Assembly (NCBI GenBank): GCA_017536215.1
Contig: JAFXHY010000209.1
Coordinates: 1 to 47,515, forward strand
DNA: 47,515 nt
Direction of reading: 5' to 3'
Origin: Muribaculaceae bacterium
GTDB taxonomy: Bacteria > Bacteroidota > Bacteroidia > Bacteroidales > Muribaculaceae
Position numbers and translations under genes: made by a program. Of the stretch, positions 19,621-40,463 are shown piece by piece; position 1 is the first letter of the stretch; every line of letters starts with the position of its first letter. The notes below the pieces were generated by a model. That model had not been told where the DNA came from, searched no databases, and saw only the letters and a program-made list of their open reading frames with translations.

Positions 19621-19723
19621 TTATTCTGTCGCTCCACGTTCCCGACTTTCGGCAACGCAATAGCCTGATAAATAGGATAAATCGCTGATTATCGGTAATT
19701 TTGCATATAGAAAGTTACCGATT

Positions 19724-20215: not shown

Positions 20216-20256
20216 TTTCAGCGCATCTAAAATTCAATTATGCTATTTCTGCTATA

Positions 20257-20700: not shown

Positions 20701-20806
20701 TTTTACCGTTCCCAAATCGTCATACAGATTTTGAAGTTTGATTGCCGCCGGTCTGAGAAGATAGGCGGTAATTTTTTTTGCGGCGGAGAAAAAATTTTTA
20801 TTGGAA

Positions 20807-22290
20807 AGCGAGAGCCTCTCTTGCGAGCGACACCCTGCGTCGGGTCAGGAACCTCGGTCAGCGGTGGCGGAACACGGGTGCGCCTAAGTTGCAGCCCCAT
20901 AAACAGGACGGCAGCATAATCAAAGGGGAAGACCGCCCATTTTCGTAGCTTTTTTTCTTTGATGTAAGGCAAGTGTCCCGTTCTTCACAGTAGCCCTTCG
21001 GGTGTCGGAGTCTGTAACACTCCATAGCATCGAGTTTTCGGCTCGTGCTGAGCCTATCGCATCTTTCAGAGTTGAAATCATCCTCTATGAAGCCTTCGTT
21101 GATGCCGTTGAAAGCACAGCCCAAACCATCGGCTCTTTATCGGGTCTACCCATCTGCGTGAGCCTTGCAGATTATTGGTGTCGCGCATCGAGCCGCAACG
21201 GTCTATCCACGGACGGCACCGCCGCCATTGTACTTGCCAACATTGTAAGTACCGACATAGAGTGTCGCTGATTTGTCTGCGCCGCTCTTGTTACTCCGGC
21301 ATCCTCGGTCGGGGTCAGTCGTTCCGCCTGTACGTGGCGGCTTCGCCACTCTCCGTGAGTCTTATTCCCTGCTTTCCATCTTTCATCTCCGTTTCCATTC
21401 TCCGGGTATCACTCCAGGCTCATTGTCATTTTTCCTGCACAAAGTTAGTAAGGTCATTCACCGGCGAAAGGGCAAGTTTGCACTCCGTGTTCCTCCGTTT
21501 TTCGCTTCGTTGCAAAACGGCAATCACCCTTGCGCCCTCGGTTCACTTTCGACCTCACTTTGGTTTGTTTGTAAAAATTAAAACAATGAACCATACGTTA
21601 AACCCATCAATTTCAACTACAATGAGATTACAATTCGGAGAACTCAACATCACTCCAAGAGTCGTGAACCGACTCCACGAACTGGACTTCACTGTCCCAG
21701 AACTCGAAGATGCCATCGCTGACCACAAGAGCAGCTGCGACGGCGAACCCTCTGTCTACGTCGGTACTTACGGCAAGTACAACAACGGCTCGCTCTGCGG
21801 CCTGTGGATTGACCTCAGCAGCTTCGACGACTACGACGATTTTATCAATTTCTGCAAGGCTATCCACGCCGACGAGGAAGACCCGGAGCTGATGGCTCAG
21901 GACTTCGAGTGCTTCCCACGGCAGTGGTACAACGAGGGATTCATGGACGAGGACGACTTCAACCATATCCTCGAATACTCTCAGATGTGCGACAAGCATG
22001 GCACAGAGGCCGTCGATGACTATATGGAGTATTACGACGACTTCGACAGCTTCGATGAAGCCTACTGCGGAGAATGGGACAGCGAAGAGGACTTCGCCCG
22101 TAGCATCATCGATGAGTGCTACGACATTGAAAAGTCAATGGGCAATCTCGCCAATTACTTCGATTACGAAGCCTTCGCTCGCGACCTGTTTATGTGGGAC
22201 TACAACATGGGCGCACACAATCACGTGTTCCGCCGCCTCTGACCCCTGACCCGACGACTTCGGGAGTCACTCGCAAGAGTGGCTCTCGCT
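20807..22290. repeat. Giant imperfect inverted repeat A (mirror of ardA)
   Basis: Reverse complement of about 20807-21477 matches about 21529-22290 in ordered blocks: GTCGGTACTTAC, GGCAAGTACAA, TCTGCAAGGCT, CCTGTTTATG, CGTGTTCCGCC, CCTGACCCGACG, CTCGCAAGAG.GGCTCTCGCT. Confidence 0.93.
21586..22242 (+). CDS. ardA: Antirestriction protein ArdA (acidic DNA mimic)
   Basis: VYVGTYGKYNNGSLCGLWIDL, YCGEWDSEEDFA, YFDYEAFARDL; very acidic; alternative start at 21622. Confidence 0.93.
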   Translation: MNHTLNPSISTTMRLQFGELNITPRVVNRLHELDFTVPELEDAIADHKSSCDGEPSVYVGTYGKYNNGSLCGLWIDLSSFDDYDDFINFCKAIHADEEDPELMAQDFECFPRQWYNEGFMDEDDFNHILEYSQMCDKHGTEAVDDYMEYYDDFDSFDEAYCGEWDSEEDFARSIIDECYDIEKSMGNLANYFDYEAFARDLFMWDYNMGAHNHVFRRL

Positions 22291-22297
22291 GCGTTGT

Positions 22298-23473
22298 TTA
22301 TGCTTTTCGAGGAGCTTTCCCTATAATATATCGCTTCGTTAAGTATTCATTTATTGCTTGAAGCGAATAATTATTTAGAGGAAGTTCATTTAGATTTTTA
22401 TATGTTTCTTCCGCAAACATTTCAGCTCTAACTTGTGCTTTGTTTGCTAATTGAAAAAAAGATTCTTCTTCTGTTTCACAGAGCCCTCCAGTTCCGTTTG
22501 GGACAAGACTCCCATGTTGATATAATTTCAAAGCATCTTTCCAAACACTTTCTACCATAATACCTAAATCATGTTCTGTTCCAACTTGGTAAGCCGCAAT
22601 ATAATTCCCAAATGTTTGAACAACTGGATTTACTCCAAAATGAATCATAGCAAATGGCTGTTGATAATGATAATATAAATCCCCTCGCAATGCAAAATCA
22701 TTTATAATATTTGCCAAACAATTGGCATAGCCTTCTCCATAATTAGTGATGTACCAATTAGACACTGCTATGCTTCTGCTTAAATATAAGTCTACAAGAG
22801 CAAGCATATCATATGCAGCAATACCATTTTCTTTTTCTGATAATTCAAACATTCCAGATAAACCAAGTAAATGTTGAAGTTCATAAAGAGCATCTGAACA
22901 TGATTGAATCCCTATTGGACTATGCCAATACGGATTTGTCATAGTAAATACAGGCTGTAAAGCCTTTAGTAAAAAACAAATGCCCTCTTTGTAGATTTTG
23001 GCATTTAAAAACATTTGAGCCAATTGGCTATTTATGTAGGGATGTTTACAATCAGTATATTTCTTTATATATGGAGAAAAATCAATTTTTTCATACGCAA
23101 TTTTCTCCGTAATAGTTTTATAATGTTGAATTTCTGTTCGGCGAAATTCATATTGAGGTCTGCCGTTTTCTTTTACTTTTGAATTGTTGTAATCTTTAAT
23201 AAATTCATGCAGTTCATTATCATCATCTAAATTCATATACTCATTTATTTGAGCATAAGAATATACACTATTTTTAGCTCGACCAAGGATTTCCTTCATC
23301 AAGTTTATACGCAACCGCTCCTCTGAATTTAATTCGGAGTTGTTACTATTATTAGCAATCCACTCACGTAAAGCTTGCTTCTTATCCGTTGTAGATATTA
23401 TTAGTTCCTCCAACTCAGGAAAGGAGGAAACTAAAAAAGCCAATCGTTCTGCATTTTGTCTTACTTCGTCCAT
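22298..23473 (-). CDS. AT-rich hypothetical cargo protein, paralogue of 36929
   Basis: Long AT-rich ORF with its own TAATTTTG promoter (23478-23485, - strand); shares WHSP.G and YLSRSIA with 36929. Confidence 0.8.
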   Translation of the reverse strand: MDEVRQNAERLAFLVSSFPELEELIISTTDKKQALREWIANNSNNSELNSEERLRINLMKEILGRAKNSVYSYAQINEYMNLDDDNELHEFIKDYNNSKVKENGRPQYEFRRTEIQHYKTITEKIAYEKIDFSPYIKKYTDCKHPYINSQLAQMFLNAKIYKEGICFLLKALQPVFTMTNPYWHSPIGIQSCSDALYELQHLLGLSGMFELSEKENGIAAYDMLALVDLYLSRSIAVSNWYITNYGEGYANCLANIINDFALRGDLYYHYQQPFAMIHFGVNPVVQTFGNYIAAYQVGTEHDLGIMVESVWKDALKLYQHGSLVPNGTGGLCETEEESFFQLANKAQVRAEMFAEETYKNLNELPLNNYSLQAINEYLTKRYIIGKAPRKA

Positions 23474-23508
23474 TGTGCAAAATTAGCGATTTTCTGCGAA
23501 AATACCTT

Positions 23509-23543
23509 GTCTTTTAAGGGCTAATTATATAGCGGTAATTTTG
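23509..23543 (+). promoter_or_regulatory. Candidate phage late promoter, copy 1
   Basis: GTCTTTT-N20-TAATTTTG upstream of the head protease. Confidence 0.75.
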
Positions 23544-23564
23544 GCATAGCAAAATTGATTTTCT

Positions 23565-24542
23565 ATGTCTAAAACCGCATACAACATCTCGCTCAAAGGG
23601 TACGTCGGAGGCTCTGACTTCGACCGCAAGACCGTTGACACAACCCTTGCTCAAAACGAGGGTAAGCGCGTCAATGTACTTATCGACAGCCTTGGCGGTT
23701 CTCTCGCCACCGGCTTGTCTATCTCATCGGCGTTCCGCAACCACGGCAATGTTGCTGTCCACTTCGTGGGACTCAATGCCTCGGCTGCAACCATCGCTTC
23801 GCTCGGTGCAGCGCATATCTCGATGGATGCCGGGGCTATGTATCTCGTGCATAAATGCTCAATGGCATTTTTTGAGTGGGGTTCGCTCAACAGCGACCAG
23901 TTCGCTACGCTCATTGCCGACTGTGAGAAGATTAAAGCCGACCTCGATAAGCTCGACCTTAATTGCGCCCAACTCTATGCCTCTCGCTGCAAACGCAAAA
24001 CGCAAGACCTGCTCGCCCTGATGAAAGTCGGAGGCTGGCTCTCGGCAAAGGAAGCCCTCGAATGGGGCTTTGTCGATGAAATCACCGACCTTGCCGACGA
24101 ACCGGCTCCCAAACTCACCGATGCTCTCGCTTCTGCGATGGCCTCAGAGGGTGTGCCGATACCGAACATTCCTGTTTCCGAGGCTGAAAAGGATTCAGCA
24201 TTCGTAAAATTTATCTCCGCTATTGCTTCGATATTCCAATCTAAACCCCATATCGATATTAAACAAGACGAACAACCCACCAACGACCAGTCGGCACGCA
24301 TCGCCGACCTCGAAGCGCAGCTTGCCGACAAGGACAAGACCATTGCCGACAAAGACGCTCTCATCGCTGACCGCGATAAGACCATCGCCGACCTGCAAGC
24401 CAAGCTCGACAAGAAACCGGCTGAGGACACCACGGCAGTCGTAGACGATGCCAAGCCCTCAGGCAACACCGACCCCAAGAACGATGTCGAGCAGTTTGTA
24501 GATACCTACAACTCTGCTCGCGCTCTCTACAACGAAGTATAA
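23565..24542 (+). CDS. ClpP-like prohead protease with coiled-coil (scaffold-like) tail
   Basis: IDSLGGS, GLNASAAT, LVHK, WLSAKEALEWGFVDEI; heptad repeats ADKDKTI/ADKDALI/ADRDKTI. Confidence 0.9.
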   Translation: MSKTAYNISLKGYVGGSDFDRKTVDTTLAQNEGKRVNVLIDSLGGSLATGLSISSAFRNHGNVAVHFVGLNASAATIASLGAAHISMDAGAMYLVHKCSMAFFEWGSLNSDQFATLIADCEKIKADLDKLDLNCAQLYASRCKRKTQDLLALMKVGGWLSAKEALEWGFVDEITDLADEPAPKLTDALASAMASEGVPIPNIPVSEAEKDSAFVKFISAIASIFQSKPHIDIKQDEQPTNDQSARIADLEAQLADKDKTIADKDALIADRDKTIADLQAKLDKKPAEDTTAVVDDAKPSGNTDPKNDVEQFVDTYNSARALYNEV

Positions 24543-24563
24543 ACCATAAAACCCTATACCACA

Positions 24564-25523
24564 ATGGCAGGTAAATTCTCATTCACTCTCCAAGAGTATC
24601 AGGAGGCAGCGGTCAAATACCGCCCCGACCTCCTTATGCTCCCGATTATCGGCATCGGCGATACGCTCCAGTTTATGACCGGTCGCCCCGGCATCCGATA
24701 CAAGGAGCGCGTCGGCAACCTCACAGGTGATGCACAGTTCGCTCCATACAATCCCCAACGTGCCGTGGACTACAACCTCGGCATCGAGTTCCGCGACCTC
24801 GAAACCTACTTCGGCTCTGTTGTCGCCAACTTCGAGCCGAACAGCGCAATCTCTACATTACTCGGTACGGGCGCAACCAAAGGTGACGGTCAGATGACTA
24901 CACCCACCGCTCGCCACGTCCTCGCCAAGATTGCCAAGAACCTTTCCGAACATCTCAACGATGCCGTTTGGAACGGCAAGCGCAACGCCGCCGGTGATAC
25001 CACCGCCGACCTTTTCGACGGCTTCGACACGATTACCGAAAAGGAAATCGCCAATGGTGCTATCGCTGAAGCCGAGGGCAACTACATGAAGTTCACCGAC
25101 GCGATTACTCCGGCTAATGCCGTTGACATCGCCAAGGAAATTCTGTTCTCGCTCGACCCGCGCCTGAGAAGTCAGGACTTGTATCTCTATTGCTCACAGG
25201 ACTTCGTCGACAAGTACAACGAAGGCTACCTGCTCACTCACGGCGGCATACCGTACAACACGCAGTACGGACAGCAAGCCGTTGAAGGCTCTAACGGCAA
25301 GCTGAAATTCTGCCCCCTCTACAACAAGGCAGGCTCGAAGTTCATGCACGTTACCACCAAGGCAAATATGCTCGTCGGTTACGACCAGATGGGCGATGTG
25401 GAAAACGTGATGGTGAAAGAGTATGCTCCTTTCATCCTCTCGTACATCGCCACTATGTTCTTCGGTGTGCAGTTTGAAACGCTCGACAAACGCCGTTTCA
25501 AAACCATTGAAATCACGGTGTAA
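24564..25523 (+). CDS. Major capsid protein (probable HK97 fold)
   Basis: Follows the protease; 319 aa; AVWNG...DLFDGFDT motif typical of capsids. Confidence 0.75.
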   Translation: MAGKFSFTLQEYQEAAVKYRPDLLMLPIIGIGDTLQFMTGRPGIRYKERVGNLTGDAQFAPYNPQRAVDYNLGIEFRDLETYFGSVVANFEPNSAISTLLGTGATKGDGQMTTPTARHVLAKIAKNLSEHLNDAVWNGKRNAAGDTTADLFDGFDTITEKEIANGAIAEAEGNYMKFTDAITPANAVDIAKEILFSLDPRLRSQDLYLYCSQDFVDKYNEGYLLTHGGIPYNTQYGQQAVEGSNGKLKFCPLYNKAGSKFMHVTTKANMLVGYDQMGDVENVMVKEYAPFILSYIATMFFGVQFETLDKRRFKTIEITV

Positions 25524-25561
25524 TTTCTCTCACCTTTTACCCTTTACCTCATACCTAAGTT

Positions 25562-26149
25562 ATGGCTTCTAAATGTACCTCTATACAGAAATCGCTCGGT
25601 TGGTGCCAAGGCACCCCCGAGCTTCCCGGTGTCTAACGCCGCATCTACTACCTCGCCAAGAGCGAGATTGTGGCGTTTCCACAACTCCCTCGTGATGAAC
25701 TCGGTCGTGCCACTTCCGCTATCCTTGCCGGTGACTTCACACTTGCCGCTGATGCCAAGTGGAAGTATATCGACATCCTCCCAGACAAGTCGCAGTTGAC
25801 CTCCGAGGCTCAGGGCGAATTGCCCTCGCAGACGCAGCTCAACAAACTCACTGCCGTTCACCCCGGAGTCGGTGCTGATGCGTCAGCCGCTGCTGCCTAC
25901 ATCAACAACACCGACAACGTGTTTGTCGTGGAAGATATGAAAGGCAATCACCGTGTCCTCGGCAACGACAAGTGGAACACGAAAGCCACTGTCGCCCAGG
26001 ATTTGGGTCAGGGTGCCACCGGCACGACCTCGACCACAATCTCCGTCGAGGCTACCGACGAAGTGCCTGCGCCCTTCTATGTCGGCACTCTCGAAACCGA
26101 GGACGGCGATATTGACTGCTCCGCTACCGGCACAGTCAAGAAAGCGTAA
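25562..26149 (+). pseudogene. Probable virion structural protein (tail-tube-like) with an in-frame TAA at 25634-25636
   Basis: MASKCTSIQKSLGWCQGTPELPGV*RRIYYLAKSEIV continues in frame into the 25670-26149 ORF. Confidence 0.7.
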
Positions 26150-26172
26150 CCGCCAATTCTCTGCATAACCCT

Positions 26173-26844
26173 ATGGATAGAGCCGTCAGGAAAGGAGCAA
26201 TCGCGTTGGACGAGATGTTGAACGACATCGAAGTGCCTTCGCTCGACGTTCCCGACCTCGACGGCTCTTTTGTTCCGACCGGCGAAGCCAAAGACCTGTT
26301 CGCCGAGAAGAAGCGAGCGGCATGGAAAGATGTGCAACAGGCAGAAGCCCGTTGCGACTTCGCCCCCAATAAGGTGCGCATTTCCTACCGCAATCCGGCT
26401 TTCGGAATAATCTCGCTCTGGAAAAAATCTATTTATGGACGCACTCTCACAGAAATAAAATCTGATGAGAGTATGGTGGAGAAATTTGCCGAAGGCATGA
26501 ACACCCTTATCCGGCAAATTCTCGGTCACTCGCTCGCGTCAGGCGACTGGTGCATCGTAACCTCGCCCAAGCGCAGACACAAGACACAGAACTTTGCCTC
26601 GATGATCTCAGCGAAACTCGGAGAACTTCTCGGCATACCGTTCTATGAAGACCTTGCCGAGTGCCACTCCAAGCATCGTGTCGGGGCTGTCTTTACCTTT
26701 GGAAAAGAACCGCCCAAAGAAAGTAACATCATCGTCTTTGACGATTTCGTCACCACCGGCGCCACAATGATTTCAATGCGCGAGCTGCTAATGCCACTCG
26801 GCAAAAATCTTGTGTTTTTCACCGGAATAAACAACAAACTTTGA
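26173..26844 (+). CDS. Phosphoribosyltransferase-fold (ComF-like) protein
   Basis: PRPP-binding loop IIVFDDFVTTGATM. Confidence 0.75.
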   Translation: MDRAVRKGAIALDEMLNDIEVPSLDVPDLDGSFVPTGEAKDLFAEKKRAAWKDVQQAEARCDFAPNKVRISYRNPAFGIISLWKKSIYGRTLTEIKSDESMVEKFAEGMNTLIRQILGHSLASGDWCIVTSPKRRHKTQNFASMISAKLGELLGIPFYEDLAECHSKHRVGAVFTFGKEPPKESNIIVFDDFVTTGATMISMRELLMPLGKNLVFFTGINNKL

Positions 26845-26875
26845 CCCCTGCGACCAAAATAATTTTGACCCCTCT

Positions 26876-27493
26876 ATGGATAATAAATTCACTGAACTAA
26901 TCGGACAATGGCTGCAAACGCCCGAAGCGGAGCGCGACTACACCATAGGCGCACTCTATCTGCTGAAACTCTCCGGCAATCAAATCATGTATCGCAACAT
27001 TGTTGCTCAACTTGACCGCCGCCACGATGTCGTGGAGTATCAGCTTCAGAAATACTACAATTTCCGCGTTCAGGCTCTGACACACGCCCAAGTTGAGGAA
27101 ATGTCGGCACAAGTCGAACAGATTGTTGCCGACCATATTCCACTTGCCACCGAAGCCGACAAGCAACCGCAGAAAGGCAAGCGAGCCGACCACGACTCTT
27201 TGCCGGACGACATCAAGGCTCGCTACGTTGAGAACCTTTCGCTTCTACAACGTATGCGCGAGCTGCATCTGCGCCTCCGCTCGCTCTCGCTTGACAACGC
27301 TCCATGCCCGGATTCCGAGCGTTATCCGTTCTTGAAAGAACTTATATCGCTCGACAAGAAACTTCATGCCAACTGGGAGGCATACGACCACTATGTCGCA
27401 CCAAGCCCCGATGCCGTTCCCTCGCGTCCGGCTAAGACCGTCCGTTCCGCCGCAGGTGCTAAGAATACCACCAAGAAGTCTGCGAAGAAATGA
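26876..27493 (+). CDS. Hypothetical phage protein
   Basis: Helical ORF, translationally coupled to the next gene. Confidence 0.75.
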   Translation: MDNKFTELIGQWLQTPEAERDYTIGALYLLKLSGNQIMYRNIVAQLDRRHDVVEYQLQKYYNFRVQALTHAQVEEMSAQVEQIVADHIPLATEADKQPQKGKRADHDSLPDDIKARYVENLSLLQRMRELHLRLRSLSLDNAPCPDSERYPFLKELISLDKKLHANWEAYDHYVAPSPDAVPSRPAKTVRSAAGAKNTTKKSAKK

Positions 27494-28011
27494 AACGCAC
27501 TGCCAACATTGACCAAATCCTTCGTCCGTTGAAAGTAACGCCATATCAGGCTTATCTTTCAAATGCCGTGCAGGTTGCCGACATCCTCGAATGGATATTG
27601 GCACAAGTCGGCATTGCTGAAGTTTGGCAGACTTCTTTCTCTATCTCCGAGGAGTTTTTGCGACGGCTCTATTTTATCACCAAGGATAAAAAGGTCAGTC
27701 GCATCAACCTTGTTCTCGACCACAAGGCTACGAACAAGACACTCAAACTTTGGGCGTTCATCACCCAAGTTATTGAGCGTACCTATCTTGCAGATAACCA
27801 CAGCAAGATATTACTCGTCCAGTCCGAGCGAGGCGACACGGTAAGTGTTATCACCTCGCAAAACCTGACACGAGGCAACCGCCACGAGTCAGCTTTTATC
27901 TCCACCGACCCGGCGATCTTCGCGACGCTTAAAGCGCAGGTCGATGATTTAATCACCAATCATTCAGTGCCGCTCCATGACCTATTCCGACAACGACTTG
28001 ACGCAGATTGA
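27490..28011 (+). CDS. Phospholipase D-fold nuclease-like protein
   Basis: NHSKILLV...TSQNLT (HxK...S-x-N variant of the HKD motif). Confidence 0.65.
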   Translation: MKRTANIDQILRPLKVTPYQAYLSNAVQVADILEWILAQVGIAEVWQTSFSISEEFLRRLYFITKDKKVSRINLVLDHKATNKTLKLWAFITQVIERTYLADNHSKILLVQSERGDTVSVITSQNLTRGNRHESAFISTDPAIFATLKAQVDDLITNHSVPLHDLFRQRLDAD

Positions 28012-28252
28012 AAAATTCGCGTCCATATATTTGAAGATTTCTGACATCGCCGTAATACTCGATATTCCGGCTGATGTACTACGCAACGACATCGCGGACA
28101 GAAGCACCGAGGTATCGAAAGCCTACCGACGCGGCAAAGCCGCCTCGAAAGTCAAGCTACATTCTCAGGAAATGATGCTTGCGCAGGTAGGCTCGCCCCT
28201 CGCCATCGAAAACGCCCACCGCAACTTACTTGACATGGAAGACGATGAGTAA
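27977..28252 (+). CDS. Hypothetical small HTH-like protein
   Basis: KISDIAVILDIPADVL; overlaps both neighbours. Confidence 0.65.
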   Translation: MTYSDNDLTQIEKFASIYLKISDIAVILDIPADVLRNDIADRSTEVSKAYRRGKAASKVKLHSQEMMLAQVGSPLAIENAHRNLLDMEDDE

Positions 28253-30504: not shown

Positions 30505-30554
30505 ATCCTCTGAGTCCGAAGTTATCGGCTTGCCGCTTTGCTCCGCAAAGAACA

Positions 30555-30665
30555 CTCCTCGAACACCGCACCGACGGCACCGATGCCTTCGATACTCTCT
30601 ACATCGGTTGCGAGAAATTCCCATACCACGATTCTTTTTCGCTGTCTACGAGCGGAGTTTTATAG
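30555..30665 (+). pseudogene. Orphan second copy of the terL 3' end (37 codons)
   Basis: Reads LLEHRTDGTDAFDTLYIGCEKFPYHDSFSLSTSGVL* versus LLEHRTDGTDAFDTLYIGCEKFPYRDTFTLPTAGII* at 30394-30504. Confidence 0.92.
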
Positions 30666-30717
30666 TTTGGCTATCACAATATTATTTTGTAATTTTGTGA
30701 TTATCAAACTTCAGTTT

Positions 30718-31356: not shown

Positions 31357-31918
31357 TATTAAAAACAACGCCCTCGGCGCTGTGGGCGAACATCAAACTC
31401 TTTCATGATTGCTACTGCTTGGCTATCAAGCTGCAATTACCAATCTATCCGTGAAGAACGATGAATCGACCGACATTTTATGCCGAGATACAAAAGGCCG
31501 ATTTGTTGCCATTCAAGTTAAGGCTACCAAAGGAGACAACATAACTGTAGGCTTTACTCATAAAGAGTTTTATGATGCCAACGGCAACTTGGATTTGGCT
31601 AAGGGCAAAGCATTTCTTGACAAGAAAATAGTCGGACCGTGGGTGCTTGTTCAAGTCTGCGGATCTACCGTTCTCCCCACTTTCAAGTTCTTCATACTTT
31701 CTCCCTCTCAAATACGAGAACTCATCTATGACTCTGAAAAATGGTATCTGACCGGCCACCATCGAGCTAAACTTCCTGATGCCTCAGGACGTATCGGTAT
31801 CCCCGTTCCTTGGTTAAACGGGCAAGGTGTTCCTGCAAATTCTAATCATGTTGAATGGATTAACCCATTCGCTTCTGAGAAGTTTGAGGACGCTTGGCAT
31901 AACTTATTGATTGATTAG
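31349..31918 (+). pseudogene. PD-(D/E)xK nuclease-like gene with an in-frame TGA at 31406-31408
   Basis: MIDIKNNALGAVGEHQTLS*LLLLGYQA...STDIL...IQVKAT. Confidence 0.7.
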
Positions 31919-31919
31919 G

Positions 31920-31992
31920 GCGTTGCGACACCGTCGCCGGGCTATTGTAAACGGAGCCTCGGTCTCCTCCATTCGGCATCTATCCCTAACGC
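31920..31992 (+). repeat. 73-nt structured repeat, copy 1
   Basis: GCGTTGCG...CCCTAACGC with inner GGAGCC-TC-GGTCTCC; homologous to 38106-38178. Confidence 0.75.
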
Positions 31993-32197
31993 TTGTCGAT
32001 AACTTCTTTGATTTTGCTGTTGGTTGGCTCACAAATTATTAGTAACTTTGCAATTACTTAACAGCAAAATCTGTAAATGACCCATTGACATCGAAAATAT
32101 AACGGCGCGAGCCGACAATTTTTTGAAACTCCCAAGTAGTTGTTACAGGCTTTGGTCGGCCTTCAGATGCTACAAGGGAGTTTTGCTTTTGCTATCT

Positions 32198-33943
32198 ATG
32201 GATCGAATAGATATGATACATACTGTTGGGCGAGAGTTCTTGGTCTCAAATATTGAGAACAATGAATTCAGCTATCAACAAGTAATAGACCGTTCATTGA
32301 GCGGCCATTATAAACTTGATATTCGTTTCTTTGATGAAAGTTCTGAAACAGCAGTTTTAATCGAAACCAAACGTAGGTTTACCAATACAGATAAAGAACA
32401 ATTGTTTGCATATGTTTCGTTGGAACAAGAACTGAATCCAGAAACTAATATTATAGCCATACTCGCTAATACTGACAATGATCAGATTAAAGTTTGGAAA
32501 TTCTCTAATAATGAAGCAGCAGGTTTGGAATTGAGCGATTCCAAATTAAAGAGTTTTGAGGAGTATAAAATGTGCTTTATCCCTCAAAATGTAAACGATA
32601 GAAATGCCGTTTTAGAGAATACTTCCAAACTTAATAAAATACTTCATGACAATGGTATTCCTGAAAAGTTAAGGAGCCAATTTGTTGGTACTTGCCTTCT
32701 TGCATTAAAAGAACGTTTGAAATTTAAAGGACTTTCCACATTTCAAATAAATGCAGGAATAAAAGAGATATTGGCATCTATGCTCCATGACAGCCTTGAT
32801 AGGGCCAAGAAACTCGTCGTATTACAAAATAACATTCTTGAAAGTCAAAGCGTTTCTTCTTTACGCTCAGAGGAATATCAAAAGATACTTCTTTTTATAA
32901 AAAAGAATATTTTACCGTACATAAATGAGTATACAACAGAGGGACACGACATACTTAGCTACTTCTTCACCACTTTCAATAAGTACGTAGCACGAGAAGA
33001 CAAAAATCAAGCGTTTACGCCAAATCACATCGCTCACTTCATGTGTAAGGTTGCAGGTATTCACCGCAATATCCGTGTTCTCGACCCAACTTGCGGTTCC
33101 GGAACTTTCTTGGTTCAATCTATGTCACAAATTCTTAAAGAATGTGAGACAGCAAGCGAGAAAAAGCATGTAAAAGAACATCAAATATATGGAATAGAAT
33201 TTGACGAGAATGTATATGGATTAGCAACCACCAATATGTTAATTCATGGTGATGGCAACTCTAACATTCAAGCAGGTTCTTGTTTTGACAAAAAGCAATG
33301 GATTGAATCATCTAATATAAATTTAGTTTTGATGAACCCACCTTATAATGCTTCAAAAAATCAAGTACCGTCTAAATATGCTCGTCTATTTGGGTCTAAA
33401 TCTACGGACCCGACAAAAGGATTAGGTTTTGTACAATATATTGCAGACACTGTAAATCAAGGTAAGCTTTTGACATTATTGCCAATGGCTTGTGCGCTTA
33501 CATCCAGTTCTGTCATCACTGATTTTAAGGAAAAAATGCTTCAAAAACACACCTTGGATGCTGTTTTTTCTTTACCTCCTGATATGTTCTATCCAGGAGC
33601 AAGTGCCGTGGCTATATGTATGGTTTTTAATTTAGGGCAACCACATCCATCTGATTTCGAAACTTTCTTCGGTTATTTTCGAGAAGATGGTTTTGAGAAA
33701 CGGAAAGGTGTTGGTCGCGTCGATATAAATGAAGTATGGGATAGCATAGAATCTGAATGGCTATCTTTATATCGCCACCGCTCTGAAATGCCGGGTAAAA
33801 GTGTTAATAGGGTTATTACTTCAAAAGATGAATGGTGCGCTGAAGCTTATATGGAAACAGATTACTCAGTTTTATCTGACAATAATTTCATTTCCGTGAT
33901 GAAATCTTATGCTGCATATTTAACAGAAAATGAATCCATTTAG
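32198..33943 (+). CDS. BcgI-like (type IIB/IIG) fused endonuclease-N6-adenine methyltransferase
   Basis: N-terminal D...LIETK nuclease motif, FTPNHI, LDPTCGSGTF (motif I), MNPPY (motif IV). Confidence 0.88.
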   Translation: MDRIDMIHTVGREFLVSNIENNEFSYQQVIDRSLSGHYKLDIRFFDESSETAVLIETKRRFTNTDKEQLFAYVSLEQELNPETNIIAILANTDNDQIKVWKFSNNEAAGLELSDSKLKSFEEYKMCFIPQNVNDRNAVLENTSKLNKILHDNGIPEKLRSQFVGTCLLALKERLKFKGLSTFQINAGIKEILASMLHDSLDRAKKLVVLQNNILESQSVSSLRSEEYQKILLFIKKNILPYINEYTTEGHDILSYFFTTFNKYVAREDKNQAFTPNHIAHFMCKVAGIHRNIRVLDPTCGSGTFLVQSMSQILKECETASEKKHVKEHQIYGIEFDENVYGLATTNMLIHGDGNSNIQAGSCFDKKQWIESSNINLVLMNPPYNASKNQVPSKYARLFGSKSTDPTKGLGFVQYIADTVNQGKLLTLLPMACALTSSSVITDFKEKMLQKHTLDAVFSLPPDMFYPGASAVAICMVFNLGQPHPSDFETFFGYFREDGFEKRKGVGRVDINEVWDSIESEWLSLYRHRSEMPGKSVNRVITSKDEWCAEAYMETDYSVLSDNNFISVMKSYAAYLTENESI

Positions 33944-34964
33944 TAATACTAAACTTTTCTCAGTAAAGGAATTATTCCCTTTACTTGTAAACGGAAAAGG
34001 TAATAATAACTTATTATCTGATGGTGATTCTGTACCATATCTTGGTGCAAAAAAGGATGATAATGGAGTGATGCGATATTGTGCCTACGATAGCGCACTA
34101 ATTATGAAAGGAAATTGTATCTGTTTCATCTGTAATGGAGCGGGGTCAGTGGGTTATACCCTTTATATGGATAGACCATTTATAGCTACATCAGATATTG
34201 TTGCTGGCTATAATGAAAAACTTAATCCATATATAGCAATGTACCTTATTTCTCTCTTTGATTTAGAGCGTCCACGTTTTTCATACGGGCGAAAATGGAA
34301 AAAAACGCTTAAGGACACAACGATCCCACTTCCTCAAACAGAAAACGGCACAGTTGATTGGGCGGCAGTAGATTCTTATATTAAAAATTCTATATTGCCG
34401 TTGCTTCCTACCCGTGCGAAGACAATTTGGAATCGTGGACCCATTAATAAACCGATATTTCAGAAAAAGATAAATCTTAATGATAAAATATGGCGTTATT
34501 TCCATATTGCAACATTGTTTAACTCATTTGAAAAATGCAAATGTTCAAGCGCTTCAGAATTATTGGAAGATGGCAATGAAATAGCATATATCGGGGCGAA
34601 AAAAAGTGACAATGGTGTCATGAAATATGTAAAAAGAGAAGAATCCTTAGTTACTAAAGGGAACTGTATTGTTTTTATTGGTGATGGGCAGGGATCAGTA
34701 GGTTATTGTTTGTATCAACCGAATGATTTTATTGGCTCTACAACTCTTGTTGCCGGATATATAGATAACTTGAATCAATATATAGCTCAATTCTTAGTCA
34801 CAGTTCTTGATATGGAAAGATATAGGTATTCTTTCGGGCGTAAATACAATAAGAGTGCTATTATTAATAGTAAAATTAAGCTACCAATAGACGATAAAGG
34901 TAAACCAGATTGGCAGTTTATGGAGAACTATATAAAGAGTCTACCTTTCAGTTCAAATATCTAA
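33930..34964 (+). CDS. HsdS-like specificity subunit (two TRD repeats)
   Basis: Internal duplication YLGAKKDDNGV/YIGAKKSDNGV, FSYGRK/YSFGRK, and PDWQFMENYIK. Confidence 0.88.
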   Translation: MNPFSNTKLFSVKELFPLLVNGKGNNNLLSDGDSVPYLGAKKDDNGVMRYCAYDSALIMKGNCICFICNGAGSVGYTLYMDRPFIATSDIVAGYNEKLNPYIAMYLISLFDLERPRFSYGRKWKKTLKDTTIPLPQTENGTVDWAAVDSYIKNSILPLLPTRAKTIWNRGPINKPIFQKKINLNDKIWRYFHIATLFNSFEKCKCSSASELLEDGNEIAYIGAKKSDNGVMKYVKREESLVTKGNCIVFIGDGQGSVGYCLYQPNDFIGSTTLVAGYIDNLNQYIAQFLVTVLDMERYRYSFGRKYNKSAIINSKIKLPIDDKGKPDWQFMENYIKSLPFSSNI

Positions 34965-34991
34965 GTTAACAATACTTTTTATAATATTTAA

Positions 34992-35909
34992 ATGGAACTC
35001 GATACTCTTAAACAAGAAACCAATCTTCGTAAGGCTTGGCCTAACGAAGCCAAAGACTTTACTCCGTGGCTTGCCGAACATTTAAGTTATGTTGGCGACA
35101 TTCTCGACATGGAATTGGAACTCGTTGAGAAAGAATCAAAGGTAGGAGGCTATTCCGCTGACATTTTAGCGAAAGAAGCTAATACCGACAATTATGTCGT
35201 TATCGAAAATCAGTTGGAAGATTCCAACCATACTCATCTCGGACAACTTTTAACATACGCTTCGGGCAAACAAGCCAAAGCAATAGTTTGGGTCGTTAAA
35301 AAAGCACGTGACGAACATAGAGAGGCTATTGAATGGCTCAATGACAATACTGTCCCTCAAATTGCTTTTTACTTGTTAGAAATTGAACTTTGGCAAATCG
35401 GCTCATCCAAATTAGCTCCCAAATTTAATATTGTGGAACGACCTAATGAATGGGCAAAGACGATAAAACCAAATACTGACGCTTCCGACACTCAGGTATT
35501 GCAACTTGAATTTTGGCAAGCATTTAATGACCATGCCGGGACTACGACATTCATCAAGTCGTTCAGACTCCGTACTGCTAAATCTCAAAATTGGTATGAC
35601 CTTGCTGTTGGAGATAGTCGTTTTCATATTTGCTTAGAAGCTAAAAAACAGAAAGGTGAAGCCACGGTCGGAATATACATTCCGGACGACAAACAGCTAT
35701 ATAATGGTTTCCTTAAGCACAAAACCGAAATAGCAACAGCACTCGGTGTTGCAGAAAATGACATCGAATGGAAAGATGCCTCAAAAGCCACCCGCTTTTA
35801 TCTAAAGAAAAATTTCGATATGGCCGATACCGGTCAATGGATAATCGTTTTCAAATGGTATATTGAAAACTGTTTGGCAATTAAAAAACTAATTCCATCA
35901 ATTATTTGA
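34992..35909 (+). CDS. NucS-like PD-(D/E)xK nuclease with a DUF4268-like C-terminus
   Basis: EAKDFTPWL, ADIL, VVIENQL...HLGQLLTYASG, EFWQAF. Confidence 0.8.
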   Translation: MELDTLKQETNLRKAWPNEAKDFTPWLAEHLSYVGDILDMELELVEKESKVGGYSADILAKEANTDNYVVIENQLEDSNHTHLGQLLTYASGKQAKAIVWVVKKARDEHREAIEWLNDNTVPQIAFYLLEIELWQIGSSKLAPKFNIVERPNEWAKTIKPNTDASDTQVLQLEFWQAFNDHAGTTTFIKSFRLRTAKSQNWYDLAVGDSRFHICLEAKKQKGEATVGIYIPDDKQLYNGFLKHKTEIATALGVAENDIEWKDASKATRFYLKKNFDMADTGQWIIVFKWYIENCLAIKKLIPSII

Positions 35910-36012
35910 AACCGTCAGAATTTCAAATATCGTGAAAATTCAAAACGTTAGTTGCTTTGAAATCCGCAGATAGCTACTTCTCAACCTCAAAACAACTTTT
36001 CAATATATAGCC

Positions 36013-36267
36013 ATGACAAAATTAGGAAAAGTCAAATCGTGGTACATAGACCCCGAAGACAATAAACTGACATACTCTCAACATAATATTCTGTTCGTAG
36101 AAGTAATTGACGGACAGAAGTATTACACCGCTCGTCATGATTCCGTTGAGTCTGACGATTACGATGCAGCAGTAGAAACCGGTGCATTTGAACTCTGCGG
36201 ACAGACCTACAACGCACGTTTCGCTGACATCTATGGTCGAGAGAACTACACCAACGTGACAATATAA
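36013..36267 (+). CDS. Hypothetical protein (cargo)
   Basis: Short ORF with an AT-rich leader, followed by a partial repeat. Confidence 0.6.
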   Translation: MTKLGKVKSWYIDPEDNKLTYSQHNILFVEVIDGQKYYTARHDSVESDDYDAAVETGAFELCGQTYNARFADIYGRENYTNVTI

Positions 36268-36277
36268 TGAGTTTCAA

Positions 36278-36307
36278 GAGTTGCGGCCACGCCGCCGCGC
36301 TTTCGTA
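36278..36307 (+). repeat. Truncated copy of the 73-nt repeat
   Basis: GAGTTGCGGCCACGCCGCCGCGCTTTCGTA matches the 5' half of 38106. Confidence 0.7.
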
Positions 36308-36342
36308 TAAAATATTACTTACAATCAACACATAAAGTAATT

Positions 36343-36924
36343 ATGGTAGATTTATCTCCTTTATTTCCCGAAGCGCAAACAAATATGCGCAACTGGAAAA
36401 ACCGCTACGATGCTGACGAGTTCCCCTATAAGGTCTCGCTCAACATCTTCTATCGCCGCTACACTATGATGTATATGTGGCAAGACATTATGGCTTATGC
36501 CAACGGTCTTAAAGGCCGTAAAGATTTCCAAACCGCTTACCGCGAATTGGAAATGTTATACGCTCAAACTTCAGGTAAGACTCGTATGGTTCTCGAAGAC
36601 AACCTGAGAAACAAGCCAAACGAAAATGTTGGTGGCAGCACTTTCGCTCACTATAACGAGCTTATAAGAAAGACTCGTCAAGGTGACAGGCAGGCTAAGG
36701 AAGAAATAGAGTTCTCCTATTTCTACTATTTCCTTGCTGACAAGGCGACCCTTCTTTGGGCAGCAATCTGTGCAACCGGAGTATCAAAGATTGATGCCGT
36801 CGCTCAGTTGACTGGCTTCCAAATTCAGCCAATGCCTCTCGAAGACTATGCAACCGTTAGCAACGGCTTAGGTCAGCTCGCTGCAGCACCTTTCTTGAAT
36901 AAGCATTATTCGCCTATGCCTTAA
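36343..36924 (+). CDS. Hypothetical protein (cargo)
   Basis: 193-aa ORF ending 4 nt before the next gene. Confidence 0.75.
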   Translation: MVDLSPLFPEAQTNMRNWKNRYDADEFPYKVSLNIFYRRYTMMYMWQDIMAYANGLKGRKDFQTAYRELEMLYAQTSGKTRMVLEDNLRNKPNENVGGSTFAHYNELIRKTRQGDRQAKEEIEFSYFYYFLADKATLLWAAICATGVSKIDAVAQLTGFQIQPMPLEDYATVSNGLGQLAAAPFLNKHYSPMP

Positions 36925-36928
36925 TCTT

Positions 36929-38095
36929 ATGGACGAAGAATATCAAGCAGTCATAAATAGACTTCTCGGAATAAAAGGTTTTGCTAAATTTATGCAAACC
37001 TTTCGTCAAACTGACAATGGAGAGAAACCAATTGTACAGATGATTAACGGATTCAAAGAATATCGTAATTCTTCTGAACCCTTAACTCAGCCTGAAATTT
37101 GGCTACTTGATACCATACAAGATAAGTTGTTTGAGTTATGCCATCGACATCACTCAAACAACTTATTTTACCTCAATGAACACGAAACTATTGGTGATGA
37201 AATCCTTAACGAATTTCGTAAAGATTGGGATGCTTCAAGCAGCGGCAGATGCGCCTATGTAGATCGCGAAAGCAAGATTTACAAAACATTTCGTGAAACA
37301 ACTATCTATGATGAACACCAAGACAATGGTATCATATTAAAATATGATAATGCTAATCATCCTTTAATTTATTCTACTATTGGTAAGGCTCTCTTGAATG
37401 GGGGATTTTTTACCCATGGCTTCCCATTTATTTCCAAGGGTTTCGCTTATGCCAACAAAGCTCATAACATTTTTTGGCATAGTCCATATGGCGTTTTCGG
37501 TTGTACAGAATGTATTTGGGAATTTATCAGGCTGCTTTCAATTGATACGCTGAAGAATAAATATGCCGATTATTACAAGCCGTTAATAAAACTGCTGTTA
37601 GTCTATCTTTCTCGTTCAATTGCATTGTGTCACATTACTAAATTGCCTCAGGCAATAGATTTTTATAAAAATCGAGCATTTTTACTGAAAGACCACTATC
37701 CTATATTTATGGCAATTTTCGCTGATTACGGATTTTTTGCTACAAATATGGAAGTTCAATTTGTTTCAGATAACTTTTTGGGTTATCAATTTGCTGCCGA
37801 ACTTGGCGCACCTGCCCTTGGTGCGGAAATGCTTAATGACTCAAAAAAGATGTATTCATACGGCAGCTTAAATTATTTTAATGAGGATAATGGTCTAAAG
37901 GATATTGAGGATGCTACATGGTTTGAATTGGTCGAAAGAGGAAAATTTAGAATGAATAAAGTTGCTGAAGAAATTATTAAAGAATTGGAACGAGGAGAGT
38001 TAATGATTGATAATATCGTATACAAAAAAATGTTGGAGGATATTTACACTTCAAACAGCAACTCTCATAAACGTTTTGACTGGAAAGAATCATGA
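36929..38095 (+). CDS. AT-rich hypothetical cargo protein, paralogue of 22298-23473
   Basis: HPLIYS, FWHSPYG, YLSRSIA, YSYGSL..GL.DIE.ATWFEL. Confidence 0.8.
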   Translation: MDEEYQAVINRLLGIKGFAKFMQTFRQTDNGEKPIVQMINGFKEYRNSSEPLTQPEIWLLDTIQDKLFELCHRHHSNNLFYLNEHETIGDEILNEFRKDWDASSSGRCAYVDRESKIYKTFRETTIYDEHQDNGIILKYDNANHPLIYSTIGKALLNGGFFTHGFPFISKGFAYANKAHNIFWHSPYGVFGCTECIWEFIRLLSIDTLKNKYADYYKPLIKLLLVYLSRSIALCHITKLPQAIDFYKNRAFLLKDHYPIFMAIFADYGFFATNMEVQFVSDNFLGYQFAAELGAPALGAEMLNDSKKMYSYGSLNYFNEDNGLKDIEDATWFELVERGKFRMNKVAEEIIKELERGELMIDNIVYKKMLEDIYTSNSNSHKRFDWKES

Positions 38096-38105
38096 TACAA
38101 TGTGG

Positions 38106-38178
38106 GAGTTGCGGCATCGCCGCCGCGCTTTCGTAAATCGAGCCTTGGTCTCGACCGTAAGGCTTCAATCGCTAACTC
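38106..38178 (+). repeat. 73-nt structured repeat, copy 2
   Basis: GAGTTGCG...CGCTAACTC with inner TCGAGCC-TT-GGTCTCGA. Confidence 0.75.
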
Positions 38179-38182
38179 ATAC

Positions 38183-38218
38183 GCGAGCTTCGACACCGTC
38201 GGGCTCGCTTTTCTTTTT
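38183..38218 (+). terminator. Terminator closing the cargo block
   Basis: GCGAGCTTCGAC-ACC-GTCGGGCTCGC followed by TTTTCTTTTT. Confidence 0.75.
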
Positions 38219-38236
38219 ATATGGATGTCGCCCCGA

Positions 38237-39056
38237 GGCGATGAATTTTGAGCATAGAGAGGAATTTGACCGTGCTTTGATGCCCTTTGAGGGAGGGATT
38301 TATCAGTAATTACCCCGAACTTTATGTTTCGTCGACTCGTACATTGAGCGATTTTGTTCTCCTGTTCTTCATCGGTTGGGCTTCGTTATTCCGTCTACGT
38401 TACGCTTTGGCCGTCGGTGATTACACGGTGTTGATGTTCCGTATTCGCTTGGGCTGTCGGCCGTTCACAGCCAAATATGCCTTGCAGGTTACGTGAGCCA
38501 TTATTTTGACAAGACGTTTCATAGGGCATACTTGTATGACGCGCTCGGAGCAGCATTGTATTTACATCGCGAAGTTAGCGTCTTTATCTACGCTCGAAAA
38601 GGGCAGGTAAATTCGCTCAAAAAATCTTCCTTTTTTACTGCTTAAAAAAGAGTATTCAAGGGGCAAGCCCTTTTGGACGAACCCTTGTCGGCTAACGTGC
38701 CGGGAGGCACTGATTGGGTCAGACGCATATTCTGCGGTGTAAAACAAACGCGCCCCGGCGCACAAGTAAAACCCAATAAAACTTCAAAACAATGACCCAC
38801 GTAATGAACATATTCGACAGCTCTCTCAACTCCGACAGCTCAATCAAATACTACTCAGTAGAAGTAATCACTTTCGATGGCGAAAGCTACACAGAAGAAA
38901 TCGAAGCCCGCGACGCCGACGAAGCCCAGGAAATCGCAGCTTCAATGTACGACGATGTCGACTACACAATGGTTCAGGGTTGCTTCGCATACTGATAAAT
39001 CAATTCTCCCTCAAAGGGGCTGCTTCGGCAGCCTTCTTTTTTGCTCATTCATCGCC
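38237..39056. repeat. Giant imperfect inverted repeat B (mirror of the 38792 gene)
   Basis: Ordered matches CACGTAA, CCGACAGC, GTAATCAC, CGAAGCCC, TCAATGTACGA, TACTGATAAATC, CTCCCTCAAAGGG, TTCATCGCC. Confidence 0.92.
38792..38995 (+). CDS. Small acidic protein (candidate anti-defence factor)
   Basis: 67 aa with 15 D/E and 2 K/R; A-rich leader; terminator at 39018-39042. Confidence 0.8.
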   Translation: MTHVMNIFDSSLNSDSSIKYYSVEVITFDGESYTEEIEARDADEAQEIAASMYDDVDYTMVQGCFAY

Positions 39057-40200: not shown

Positions 40201-40248
40201 GCCTCCCTCGCTTTTAGCCCGAAAGTTAAACCGCTAATTCTCACAATC

Positions 40249-40452: not shown

Positions 40453-40463
40453 AACCCGAAACA

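What the first reader, a model, noticed from the sequence alone, without database searches (positions are those of the whole stretch)
20974..39018. Mismatch bias points to the bottom strand as the one that folds
Seen (counted by eye in aligned blocks of module A): about 23 transitions have mirror T/G facing gene C/A, which are G-T wobble pairs only in a bottom-strand fold. About 6 go the other way. Module B shows the same trend, e.g. CAAAATAATGGCTCACGTAA vs CAAAACAATGACCCACGTAA. Inference: the selected structure forms on the template (minus) strand, not on the sense mRNA. This favours an ssDNA role over mRNA self-silencing and predicts which strand is exposed.
Basis: partly seen in the sequence, partly recalled or inferred. 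Interest (0 to 1): 0.8.

Follow-up and report, generated by a model that had tools for sequence, protein, structure and literature searches.

The report
Gene-length single-strand promoters in a phage
In a gut-bacterium prophage, four small genes (one anti-restriction) each have a non-coding mirror copy carrying the promoter they lack, so they would likely switch on only when the bottom DNA strand is single-stranded and folds back, a trick known from conjugative plasmids and unexpected in a tailed phage.

Summary
Four imperfect gene-length inverted repeats lie in a Muribaculaceae-type prophage. The window's G·T bias is 63:30 in robust columns (p=0.03 after composition). Module A gives 27:15, not 23:6; module B gives 15:10, not significant. 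Across 33 homolog clusters the bias is real but modest (738:371; 1.3–2.4 times expectation).

The decisive feature is different. Each mirror carries the Bacteroidota -7 promoter box (TAnnTT[T/C]G) on the bottom strand near the hairpin centre: 90 of 90 hairpins, against 0 of 90 on the gene side. The partner strand mismatches the box's A, a built-in bubble. Folding of the bottom strand would make a promoter that reads the gene. The same design, shorter, precedes ardA in conjugative transposons.

Satellite-like elements carry the modules beside a 1.4-kb non-coding region shared with the phage. A ComF-like protein co-occurs with the hairpins. No relaxase or known oriT was found. Verdict: a new variant of Frpo-type single-strand promoters. 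How a tailed phage exposes that strand is open; nothing was tested experimentally.

The parts
20807..21497 (-). Module A mirror arm: non-coding degenerate inverted copy of ardA and its leader, with frequent 1-6 nt deletions
   Evidence: frame-breaking gap lengths
21440..21447 (-). Module A -7 promoter box TAACTTTG, on the strand that would be non-template in a bottom-strand hairpin; aligned to TTGGTTTG on the gene side
21586..22242 (+). ardA anti-restriction gene (218 aa, with an N-terminal extension); no -7 box in the 140 nt upstream
   Evidence: Pfam PF07275 E 4.9e-34; PDB 2w82 E 5e-5
22245..22292 (+). Outer end of the module A gene arm, with a weak terminator-like stem
26173..26844 (+). ComF-like phosphoribosyltransferase-fold gene in the head/tail operon; co-occurs with the hairpin modules (link inferred)
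   Evidence: VIA-align Z 14.0, rmsd 3.8, 169 aligned to H. pylori ComF 7p0h, next hit Z 9.6; co-occurrence
38237..38643 (-). Module B mirror arm
38570..38577 (-). Module B -7 box TAACTTCG
38792..38995 (+). Module B gene, 67 aa acidic protein; weak DpnD/PcfM-like hit below cut-off
   Evidence: PF14207 E 0.0043
39016..39035 (+). Terminator-like stem after gene B
39165..39760 (-). Module C mirror arm
39691..39698 (-). Module C -7 box TAACTTTG
39910..40718 (+). Module C operon of three small unknown genes (39910-40200, 40249-40452, 40464-40718); the arm covers the first two and the start of the third
   Evidence: no Pfam or PHROG family; 50 unnamed relatives of C1
40740..40768 (+). Terminator-like stem after module C
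44691..44995 (-). Module D mirror arm, overlapping the 3' end of the DUF6712 gene
44942..44949 (-). Module D -7 box TAACTTCG
45109..45354 (+). Module D gene, 81 aa, unknown
45374..45402 (+). Terminator-like stem after gene D
12314..47515 (+). Host element: temperate tailed prophage inserted at tRNA-Lys (integrase, repressor, primase, Clp-type head protease, capsid, terminase, portal); runs off the contig end
   Evidence: complete ~45 kb relatives with tape measure and amidase

Best explanation
Each module is likely a single-stranded-DNA promoter: when the bottom strand is single-stranded it would fold so that the mirror arm supplies the non-template strand with the Bacteroidota -7 box and the gene's own template strand supplies the partner, letting host RNA polymerase transcribe ardA and the small genes. 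Shown: the arms, the promoter box on the mirror only, the mismatch at its A, the lack of a sense promoter before these genes, the co-evolution of mirror and gene, and the same design in conjugative transposons. Inferred: folding in vivo; transcription from the hairpin; shut-off once the second strand is made; an anti-defence role for genes B, C and D; and that bulges about every 19 nt keep the duplex from being a clean substrate for restriction, recombination or hairpin nucleases. Also inferred, and least certain, is how the strand gets exposed. I favour exposure on entry into a new host through the phage's own particle-linked route (about 0.35 absolute), starting at the conserved 1.4-kb non-coding region that satellites share and helped by the ComF-like protein. 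Hitch-hiking on a conjugation system (about 0.25) and strand-displacement replication (about 0.15) follow.
For: (1) The -7 box lies 40-110 nt from the centre on the mirror's bottom strand in 90 of 90 hairpins; gene top 0, gene bottom 0, mirror top 1; chance 0.023 per hairpin. (2) The motif is the host promoter: 305 of 919 ORFs have it upstream against 50 of 919 inside coding DNA. Six ordinary phage genes have a sense copy; the four hairpin genes have none. (3) The A of the box is matched in only 24% of 34 representatives, the lowest of 65 positions, while positions +4 to +8 and +15 to +22 match at 0.8-1.0. (4) Pairing extends upstream of the box, outside any leftward transcript: own partner beats other partners in 24 of 34, p=5e-4; folds. 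(5) The mirror follows its own gene: at columns where the gene departs from the family majority, the mirror follows it 155 times, keeps the majority base 37 times, other 29; own gene is the best match in 15 of 16. (6) Positive control: ardA in four CTn-type conjugative elements (two sequence types) has a ~290-nt upstream hairpin with TACCTTTG on the mirror arm 61-64 nt from the centre, and G·T ratios 16:2, 18:2, 14:2, 14:2. ardA lies on the same strand as the relaxase in 3 of 3 elements where both were located. (7) Satellite-like elements keep the polarity in 21 of 21 hairpins. (8) 36 of 36 hairpin-bearing terminase loci have the ComF-like gene; the 3 loci without it have no hairpin in the slots covered. 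The two such records read in full also lack ardA and the non-coding region. (9) Residual G·T bias above composition.
Against: No transcript or ssDNA was observed; RNA runs were contigs of relatives, probably DNA, and uninformative. In double-stranded DNA the mirror box is a perfect leftward promoter and could simply make a mirror RNA. The upstream-pairing signal is modest (median z 1.4; 15 of 34 above 2). At gene-invariant ArdA columns only the G/A class is enriched (p=0.04); T/C is not. A·A versus T·T is also skewed, so part of the bias may be purine drift of the mirror strand. Two gene-length hairpins outside the 90 have variant boxes (CACCTTTG in L332, GACCTTTG in L333), and L332 has a reversed ratio, 24:35. 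No relaxase, HUH motif or known oriT was found in the phage, and single-stranded delivery by an HK97-type phage is not something I can cite. Two fragments (L067, L068) have the ComF-like gene but no hairpin in the one slot covered. The motif was defined after seeing the four window modules.
Confidence: 0.75

Rival explanations
1. Same promoter mechanism, but the strand is exposed by conjugation: the excised prophage and the small elements are mobilised in trans from an unrecognised oriT in the shared non-coding region. (A variant of the best explanation; the confidence is for this route.)
For: The same promoter design occurs in conjugative transposons. All modules lie on one side of the non-coding region with the polarity of a leading region. 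In the small elements that region follows a DUF3987/primase block, where a related element has oriT and Mob. Relaxase-less islands with only an oriT are described (passages of PMC5704250 and bioRxiv 10.64898/2026.01.13.699239).
Against: Profiles of CTn-type and MOBV-type oriT regions, which found their positive controls, gave no significant hit in the phage or satellite sequences. The non-coding-region profile did not hit relaxase-flanking loci, and there was no PLSDB match. It does not explain why a late-operon ComF-like gene co-occurs with the hairpins.
Confidence: 0.25
2. Same promoter mechanism, but the bottom strand is exposed during the element's own replication (strand displacement or lagging template moving leftwards), so expression is replication-coupled. 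(Variant; the confidence is for this route.)
For: Both element types encode primase-type replication proteins, and in satellites the non-coding region lies directly downstream of them.
Against: Phage and satellites have unrelated replication proteins yet share the region. Anti-restriction is most useful on entry, before replication. Distant cultured relatives with similar organisation lack the hairpins.
Confidence: 0.15
3. The box is an ordinary double-stranded promoter firing leftwards. The mirror RNA pairs with the gene's template DNA (R-loop) or with an antisense RNA, or silences the genes to its left.
For: The box is a perfect consensus in dsDNA. RNA-DNA or RNA-RNA pairing of bottom-strand sequences would give the same G·T/G·U bias; RNA parameters give even larger strand differences.
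Against: It leaves the four genes with no promoter at all. Pairing extends upstream of the start site. It does not explain the bubble placed at the box's A, or the CTn controls. Purine-purine classes are as skewed as G·T, unlike what G·U-driven RNA selection would give.
Confidence: 0.17
4. The strand bias is a by-product of codon composition and gene conversion between inverted duplicates, with no selected structure.
For: Composition explains much of the raw bias; control windows also fold better on the bottom strand; gene conversion can make a mirror track its gene.
Against: It cannot produce a 90:0 promoter asymmetry, four unrelated genes with one design, recurrence in satellites and CTns, or one-sided deletions (1151 gaps in mirrors versus 324 in gene arms).
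Confidence: 0.05

Closest known systems
Frpo / ssi single-stranded DNA promoters of F, ColIb-P9 and pESBL leading regions (Masai and Arai 1997, as described in passages of PMC9849209, PMC11541004, PMC12672017)
   Same: Imperfect inverted repeat that rebuilds a housekeeping promoter when one strand folds; on the template strand of the gene; drives ardA and small unknown genes.
   Different: Uses the Bacteroidota -7/-33 promoter type, not -10/-35. The mirror spans the whole gene or operon (hairpins of 0.7-1.5 kb) rather than an intergenic stretch (the Nature study searched 50-350 bp regions). It lies in a tailed prophage and relaxase-less satellites, with no known oriT found.
Upstream hairpins of ardA in Bacteroidales CTn-type conjugative transposons (seen here; I found no description in my searches)
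   Same: Same box on the mirror arm at the same distance from the centre, mismatched gene side, same G·T polarity.
   Different: Usually about 290 nt and ending before the start codon (4 of 5 seen); the elements have a relaxase, tra genes and a recognisable oriT-like core.
Phage-inducible chromosomal islands / phage satellites that copy the helper's packaging site (recalled)
   Same: About 14-kb integrated elements with integrase, excisionase-like HTH, primase-type genes, no capsid genes found, and a non-coding region shared with a ~45-kb phage.
   Different: Known satellites are packaged and delivered as dsDNA (recalled); these carry strand-specific hairpin promoters. Dependence on the phage is untested.
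ComF(C) of natural transformation (PMC9005727, abstract)
   Same: Closest solved fold of the 26173-26844 protein (Z 14.0); ComFC binds and handles incoming ssDNA.
   Different: 11% identity, far below the NCBIfam cut-off, only a PRPP-motif hit by sequence; phage-encoded; ssDNA binding untested. PRTase folds also occur in defence toxins (8zvb, Z 8.6).
Diversity-generating retroelement template/variable repeats (recalled)
   Same: Non-coding degenerate copy of a gene.
   Different: Inverted and adjacent, full of deletions, mismatches not confined to adenines; no reverse transcriptase among the window's Pfam hits.

Membership tests
Frpo-type ssDNA promoter | Imperfect inverted repeat able to form a long stem-loop on one strand | tested here: met
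Frpo-type ssDNA promoter | Housekeeping promoter elements rebuilt in the stem, pointing at the gene | tested here: met
   -7 box in 90 of 90 mirrors, 0 gene side; TT[T/G]G-like signal about 22-19 nt upstream; motif validated as host promoter
Frpo-type ssDNA promoter | Controlled gene lacks a normal dsDNA promoter | tested here: met
   0 of 4 window genes; 0 of 80 ArdA loci within 90 nt upstream; by motif only
Frpo-type ssDNA promoter | Drives anti-defence or establishment genes | tested here: inconclusive
   met for ardA; B, C and D genes unknown
Frpo-type ssDNA promoter | Sequence homology to Frpo/ssi1-3 | not tested
   no Frpo sequence was fetched; a different promoter type makes homology unlikely
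Frpo-type ssDNA promoter | Located on the transferred strand, in the leading region next to an oriT | tested here: inconclusive
   polarity fits in 3 of 3 CTn controls; no known oriT found in phage or satellites
Frpo-type ssDNA promoter | RNA polymerase transcribes from ssDNA but not from dsDNA | not testable with these tools
   needs in vitro transcription; RNA contigs uninformative
Integrative mobilisable element (oriT-bearing) | oriT of a known relaxase family, or an own relaxase | tested here: not met
   CTn-type and MOBV-type profiles negative with working positive controls; no relaxase-like HUH motif in 26 window proteins; other oriT families not excluded
Phage satellite (PICI-like), for the small elements | Integrase, excisionase-like and primase genes, no structural genes, about one third of helper size | tested here: met
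   sizes read from gene spans, att sites not mapped
Phage satellite (PICI-like), for the small elements | Carries the helper's packaging site and is packaged in its particles | not testable with these tools
   shared 1.4-kb region shown; its function unknown
ComF family, for 26173-26844 | ComF-type PRTase fold | tested here: met
   Z 14.0 versus 9.6 for the next PRTase; model pLDDT 65, N-terminal 90 residues poorly predicted; Foldseek ranks ComF 17th by E-value but highest by query TM-score, 0.48
ComF family, for 26173-26844 | Score above the TIGR00201 cut-off | tested here: not met
   20 bits versus 233
Diversity-generating retroelement | Adenine-specific mismatches and a reverse transcriptase | tested here: not met

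The most novel reading that the evidence does not exclude
This family of HK97-type tailed temperate phages of Muribaculaceae delivers (or at once converts) its genome so that one defined strand is single-stranded in the newly infected cell. It uses gene-length fold-back promoters to express anti-defence proteins before second-strand synthesis and a ComF-like protein to handle the ssDNA, and it is parasitised by satellites that copied both the 1.4-kb origin/packaging region and the hairpin cassettes.
Probability: 0.3. Interest if true: 0.95.

Novelty: new variant of a known kind. Interest (0 to 1): 0.8.

Why it matters
It gives a sequence rule for single-strand promoters in Bacteroidota (a mirror arm with the -7 box, a bubble at its A), which also picks out such promoters in gut conjugative transposons. 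It marks three further small phage operons as candidate early anti-defence genes. Above all, it says that an abundant tailed phage family and its satellites pass through a strand-specific ssDNA state. Either prophages travel by conjugation or a dsDNA-type virion delivers single-stranded DNA; both are unexpected, and both can be tested simply with cultured lysogens. A whole gene made transcribable by a built-in non-coding complement is also a usable design for expression from ssDNA.

Tried and rejected
Folding energy as proof of strand: rejected as weak, because control windows show the same sign. A genome-wide keto skew as the cause: four-fold sites in the phage are C>G but T>A, within the host range, and predict a ratio of only about 1.1. 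DGR reading: rejected.

oriT identity of the shared non-coding region: a by-eye resemblance to the sequence upstream of a Mob gene was not borne out. The region as a long-range mirror of a distant gene: no alignment above local hairpins. As a known RNA family: no Rfam hit. Both its strands fold about equally beyond shuffles. Short matches there to rolling-circle nick motifs (recalled) occur in only 7 or 11 of 14 sequences and were not used.

RNA evidence: four RNA-labelled runs gave contigs of relatives, three probably DNA, with no strand information. A 265-nt repeat in cultured phage MZ447863 proved to be short tandem motifs without the box. Module B protein was not found in 300 phylum-wide genomes with this query. 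A single-sequence model of the 19724 protein was too poor to use. No solved relative was found for the primase C-terminal part. The scan's earlier findings returned nothing. One search repeated and added nothing. A search for the promoter consensus in print found no paper, so the consensus is recalled and checked only against this genome.

Rows dropped before the family count: 4 of 94 candidate hairpins (L030 weak, L095 fragment, L081 duplicate of module A, L091 gene side unclear at the time; L091 later showed a variant box).
Full report
Setting. Host genes fill the first 12 kb. From tRNA-Lys (12314-12387) to the contig end lies a temperate prophage: integrase, repressor, DnaG-type primase fusion, ArdA, Clp-type head protease, capsid protein, terminase, portal. 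Relatives sit in genomes of the same family (16 of 60), and named records carrying the family's conserved region are mostly Muribaculaceae and other Bacteroidales. Complete relatives are about 45 kb, with tape measure and amidase genes. A near-identical phage occurs in two runs that lack this host's flanking DNA, so it has moved between hosts recently. Cultured relatives are distant (terminase at most 35%), and the three examined have no gene-length hairpin.

Observation. Four long imperfect inverted repeats stand out (A 20807-22290, B 38237-39056, C about 39165-40472, D 44691-45364). Each has a gene on the right arm and a non-coding mirror on the left. Transition counts, bottom-G·T to top-G·T, are 46:26, 22:20, 31:14 and 13:7 over all aligned columns and 27:15, 15:10, 16:3 and 5:2 in columns robust to six scoring schemes. 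After allowing for the A+C richness of the gene arms, the pooled window p is 0.03-0.08. I then collected 94 candidate hairpins from the window and 105 related loci, dropped 4 (L030, L095, L081, L091) and clustered the rest. In 33 clusters the count is 738:371 against an expected fraction of 0.57; 29 of 33 clusters exceed expectation, by odds of 1.30 (ArdA), 1.47 (B, D, other) and 2.39 (C). These clusters are kin, so the p-values overstate. In ArdA modules the excess by codon position is 0.77 vs 0.64, 2.65 vs 1.30 and 3.18 vs 2.34, and at gene-invariant columns only the G/A class is enriched. Purine-purine classes are skewed too. The bottom strand folds better in 33 of 33 representatives, but also in ordinary phage windows. 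So the bias is real, modest and partly compositional.

What fixes the strand. Each mirror, read on the bottom strand, has TAACTT(T/C)G close to the hairpin centre (21440-21447, 38570-38577, 39691-39698, 44942-44949). TAnnTTTG is the Bacteroidota -7 promoter box (recalled; a search found no paper holding the string). In this genome the motif precedes 305 of 919 ORFs and occurs in 50 of 919 coding stretches; six ordinary phage genes have a sense copy and the four hairpin genes none. Across the family it is on the mirror's bottom strand in 90 of 90 hairpins and on neither strand of the gene arm, with a chance of 0.023 each. Among 80 ArdA loci from metagenomes, 72 have it in the mirror and 0 on the gene side; 6 of the 8 misses are cut by contig ends. 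The geometry is what a fold-back promoter needs. In a bottom-strand hairpin the mirror runs 5' to 3' away from the loop as non-template strand, and the gene's template strand runs 3' to 5' beside it. The gene side keeps the TTG but not the TA: the A is matched in 24% of 34 representatives, the lowest of 65 positions. Pairing continues upstream through a TT(T/G)G-like stretch about 20 nt before the box. The test of this is positive but modest.

The mirror is maintained. It follows its own gene's changes 155 times against 37, and matches its own gene best in 15 of 16; selection or gene conversion could do this. Gaps fall mostly in the mirror (1151 versus 324), many of 4-5 nt. Bulges of 3 nt or more are spaced at a median of 19 nt, and only 7 of 3484 perfect runs reach 15 bp against about 32 expected. 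I infer that the duplex is kept imperfect on purpose.

Positive control. Other Bacteroidales ardA genes lie in CTn-type conjugative elements. Four of them (two sequence types) have a 290-nt upstream hairpin with TACCTTTG on the mirror arm 61-64 nt from the centre, a mismatched gene side, and G·T ratios of 16:2, 18:2, 14:2 and 14:2. A fifth has a gene-length hairpin with a variant box and a reversed ratio of 24:35. In 3 of 3 elements where the relaxase was located, ardA is on the same strand. By the rule that relaxase genes enter last (established knowledge, recalled), that makes the promoter strand the transferred strand. This matches Frpo-type promoters, which fold from ssDNA, drive ardA and other leading genes, and are turned off by second-strand synthesis (passages of PMC9849209, PMC12672017, PMC11541004).

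How could a phage expose that strand? Complete relatives have a conserved non-coding region of about 1.4 kb between the lysis and tape measure genes; the window ends before it. The same region occurs in small integrated elements of about 14 kb (integrase, AlbA-type regulator, HTH, DUF3987, BT4734/PriCT primase; no capsid or relaxase gene seen). These carry modules B, C, A and D packed next to it in the phage's polarity; 21 of 21 of their hairpins have the box on the same strand. So the modules and the region travel together. The region did not match CTn-type or MOBV-type oriT profiles that found their controls, relaxase-flanking loci, plasmids or Rfam. Related primase backbones are found with tape measure genes, which leans towards satellites; another related element has oriT and Mob, which leans towards conjugation. 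Natural losses add a clue. All 36 hairpin-bearing terminase loci have the gene at 26173-26844, and the 3 loci without it, at separate places in a quick tree, have no hairpin in the slots covered. The two read in full also lack ardA and the non-coding region (fragments, 63-67% complete). Two fragments have the gene but no hairpin in the one slot seen. The protein's closest solved fold is H. pylori ComF (Z 14.0, rmsd 3.8, 169 residues; next Z 9.6; model pLDDT 65), which handles incoming ssDNA in natural transformation (abstract of PMC9005727). A shared fold shows no function, but an ssDNA-handling homolog in the structural operon points to the particle route.

Verdict. The modules work like Frpo promoters (0.75). 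Membership is met on anatomy, inconclusive on oriT linkage, and untested on activity. The route is open: particle-linked about 0.35, conjugative hitch-hiking 0.25, replication 0.15. Ten literature searches listed no paper on gene-length fold-back promoters, on ssDNA promoters in Bacteroidota, or on such promoters in tailed phages. The library lacks most subscription papers, and I did not open supplements (the Frpo candidate tables of PMC11541004 may hold Bacteroidota cases). Papers seen: passages of PMC11541004, PMC12672017, PMC9849209, PMC5704250, PMC3105389, PMC5729914, PMC7641763 and bioRxiv 10.64898/2026.01.13.699239; the abstract of PMC9005727. Masai and Arai 1997 was seen only as cited in these.

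Noticed in passing
L110:14990-16560 (relative G104; absent from the window): Conserved, structured 1.4-kb non-coding region between lysis and tape measure genes, shared by phages and about 14-kb satellite-like elements; candidate packaging or transfer origin.
   Followed up: partly
L314, L315, L316, L283, L245, L242, L243, L240: Small integrated elements that condense hairpin modules B, C, A and D beside the shared region, with no capsid or relaxase gene seen; possibly an undescribed satellite family of Muribaculaceae.
   Followed up: partly
L328-L332 (CTn-type elements): Fold-back promoter hairpins before ardA in Bacteroidales conjugative transposons, and a conserved oriT-like core upstream of mobA in 7 relaxase loci.
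   Followed up: partly
window 25563-26149: The gene after the capsid gene has an early in-frame stop (relatives are 191-196 aa, the window ORF 159 aa); this copy may be defective or mis-assembled.
   Followed up: no
window 32123-34964: Cargo N6-methyltransferase plus specificity subunit (type I-like R-M) in a phage that also encodes the type I inhibitor ArdA; ssDNA-only expression of ardA would avoid self-inhibition in the lysogen (inference).
   Followed up: no
window 31920-31949, 36278-36307, 38106-38135: A 30-nt repeat follows successive cargo genes between terminase and module B, as in a cassette array.
   Followed up: no
window 30400-30476 and 30561-30637: Duplicated 3' end of the terminase gene (74% identical), a likely scar of cargo exchange; relatives' contigs skip it.
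   Followed up: no
window 19444-19557 and 19682-19731: Short AT-rich palindromes downstream of the primase gene; candidate replication origin.
   Followed up: no
L254, L263, L265, L318, L239: ArdA with an intact mirror but no phage genes (a terminase fragment in L239) and no shared region nearby; next to tRNA-Leu in L254, L265 and L318, beside defence-like genes.
   Followed up: no
L434, L437: DUF3987/BT4734-primase backbones followed by tape measure genes, without hairpins or the shared region.
   Followed up: partly
G000 contigs C179, C35, C182, C67: Further tape-measure-like stretches and a degenerate ArdA-like piece suggest more related elements in this genome.
   Followed up: no
window 27490-28011: Phospholipase-D-type nuclease-like gene beside the terminase genes; missing in 2 of the 3 loci that lack the ComF-like gene.
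   Followed up: partly
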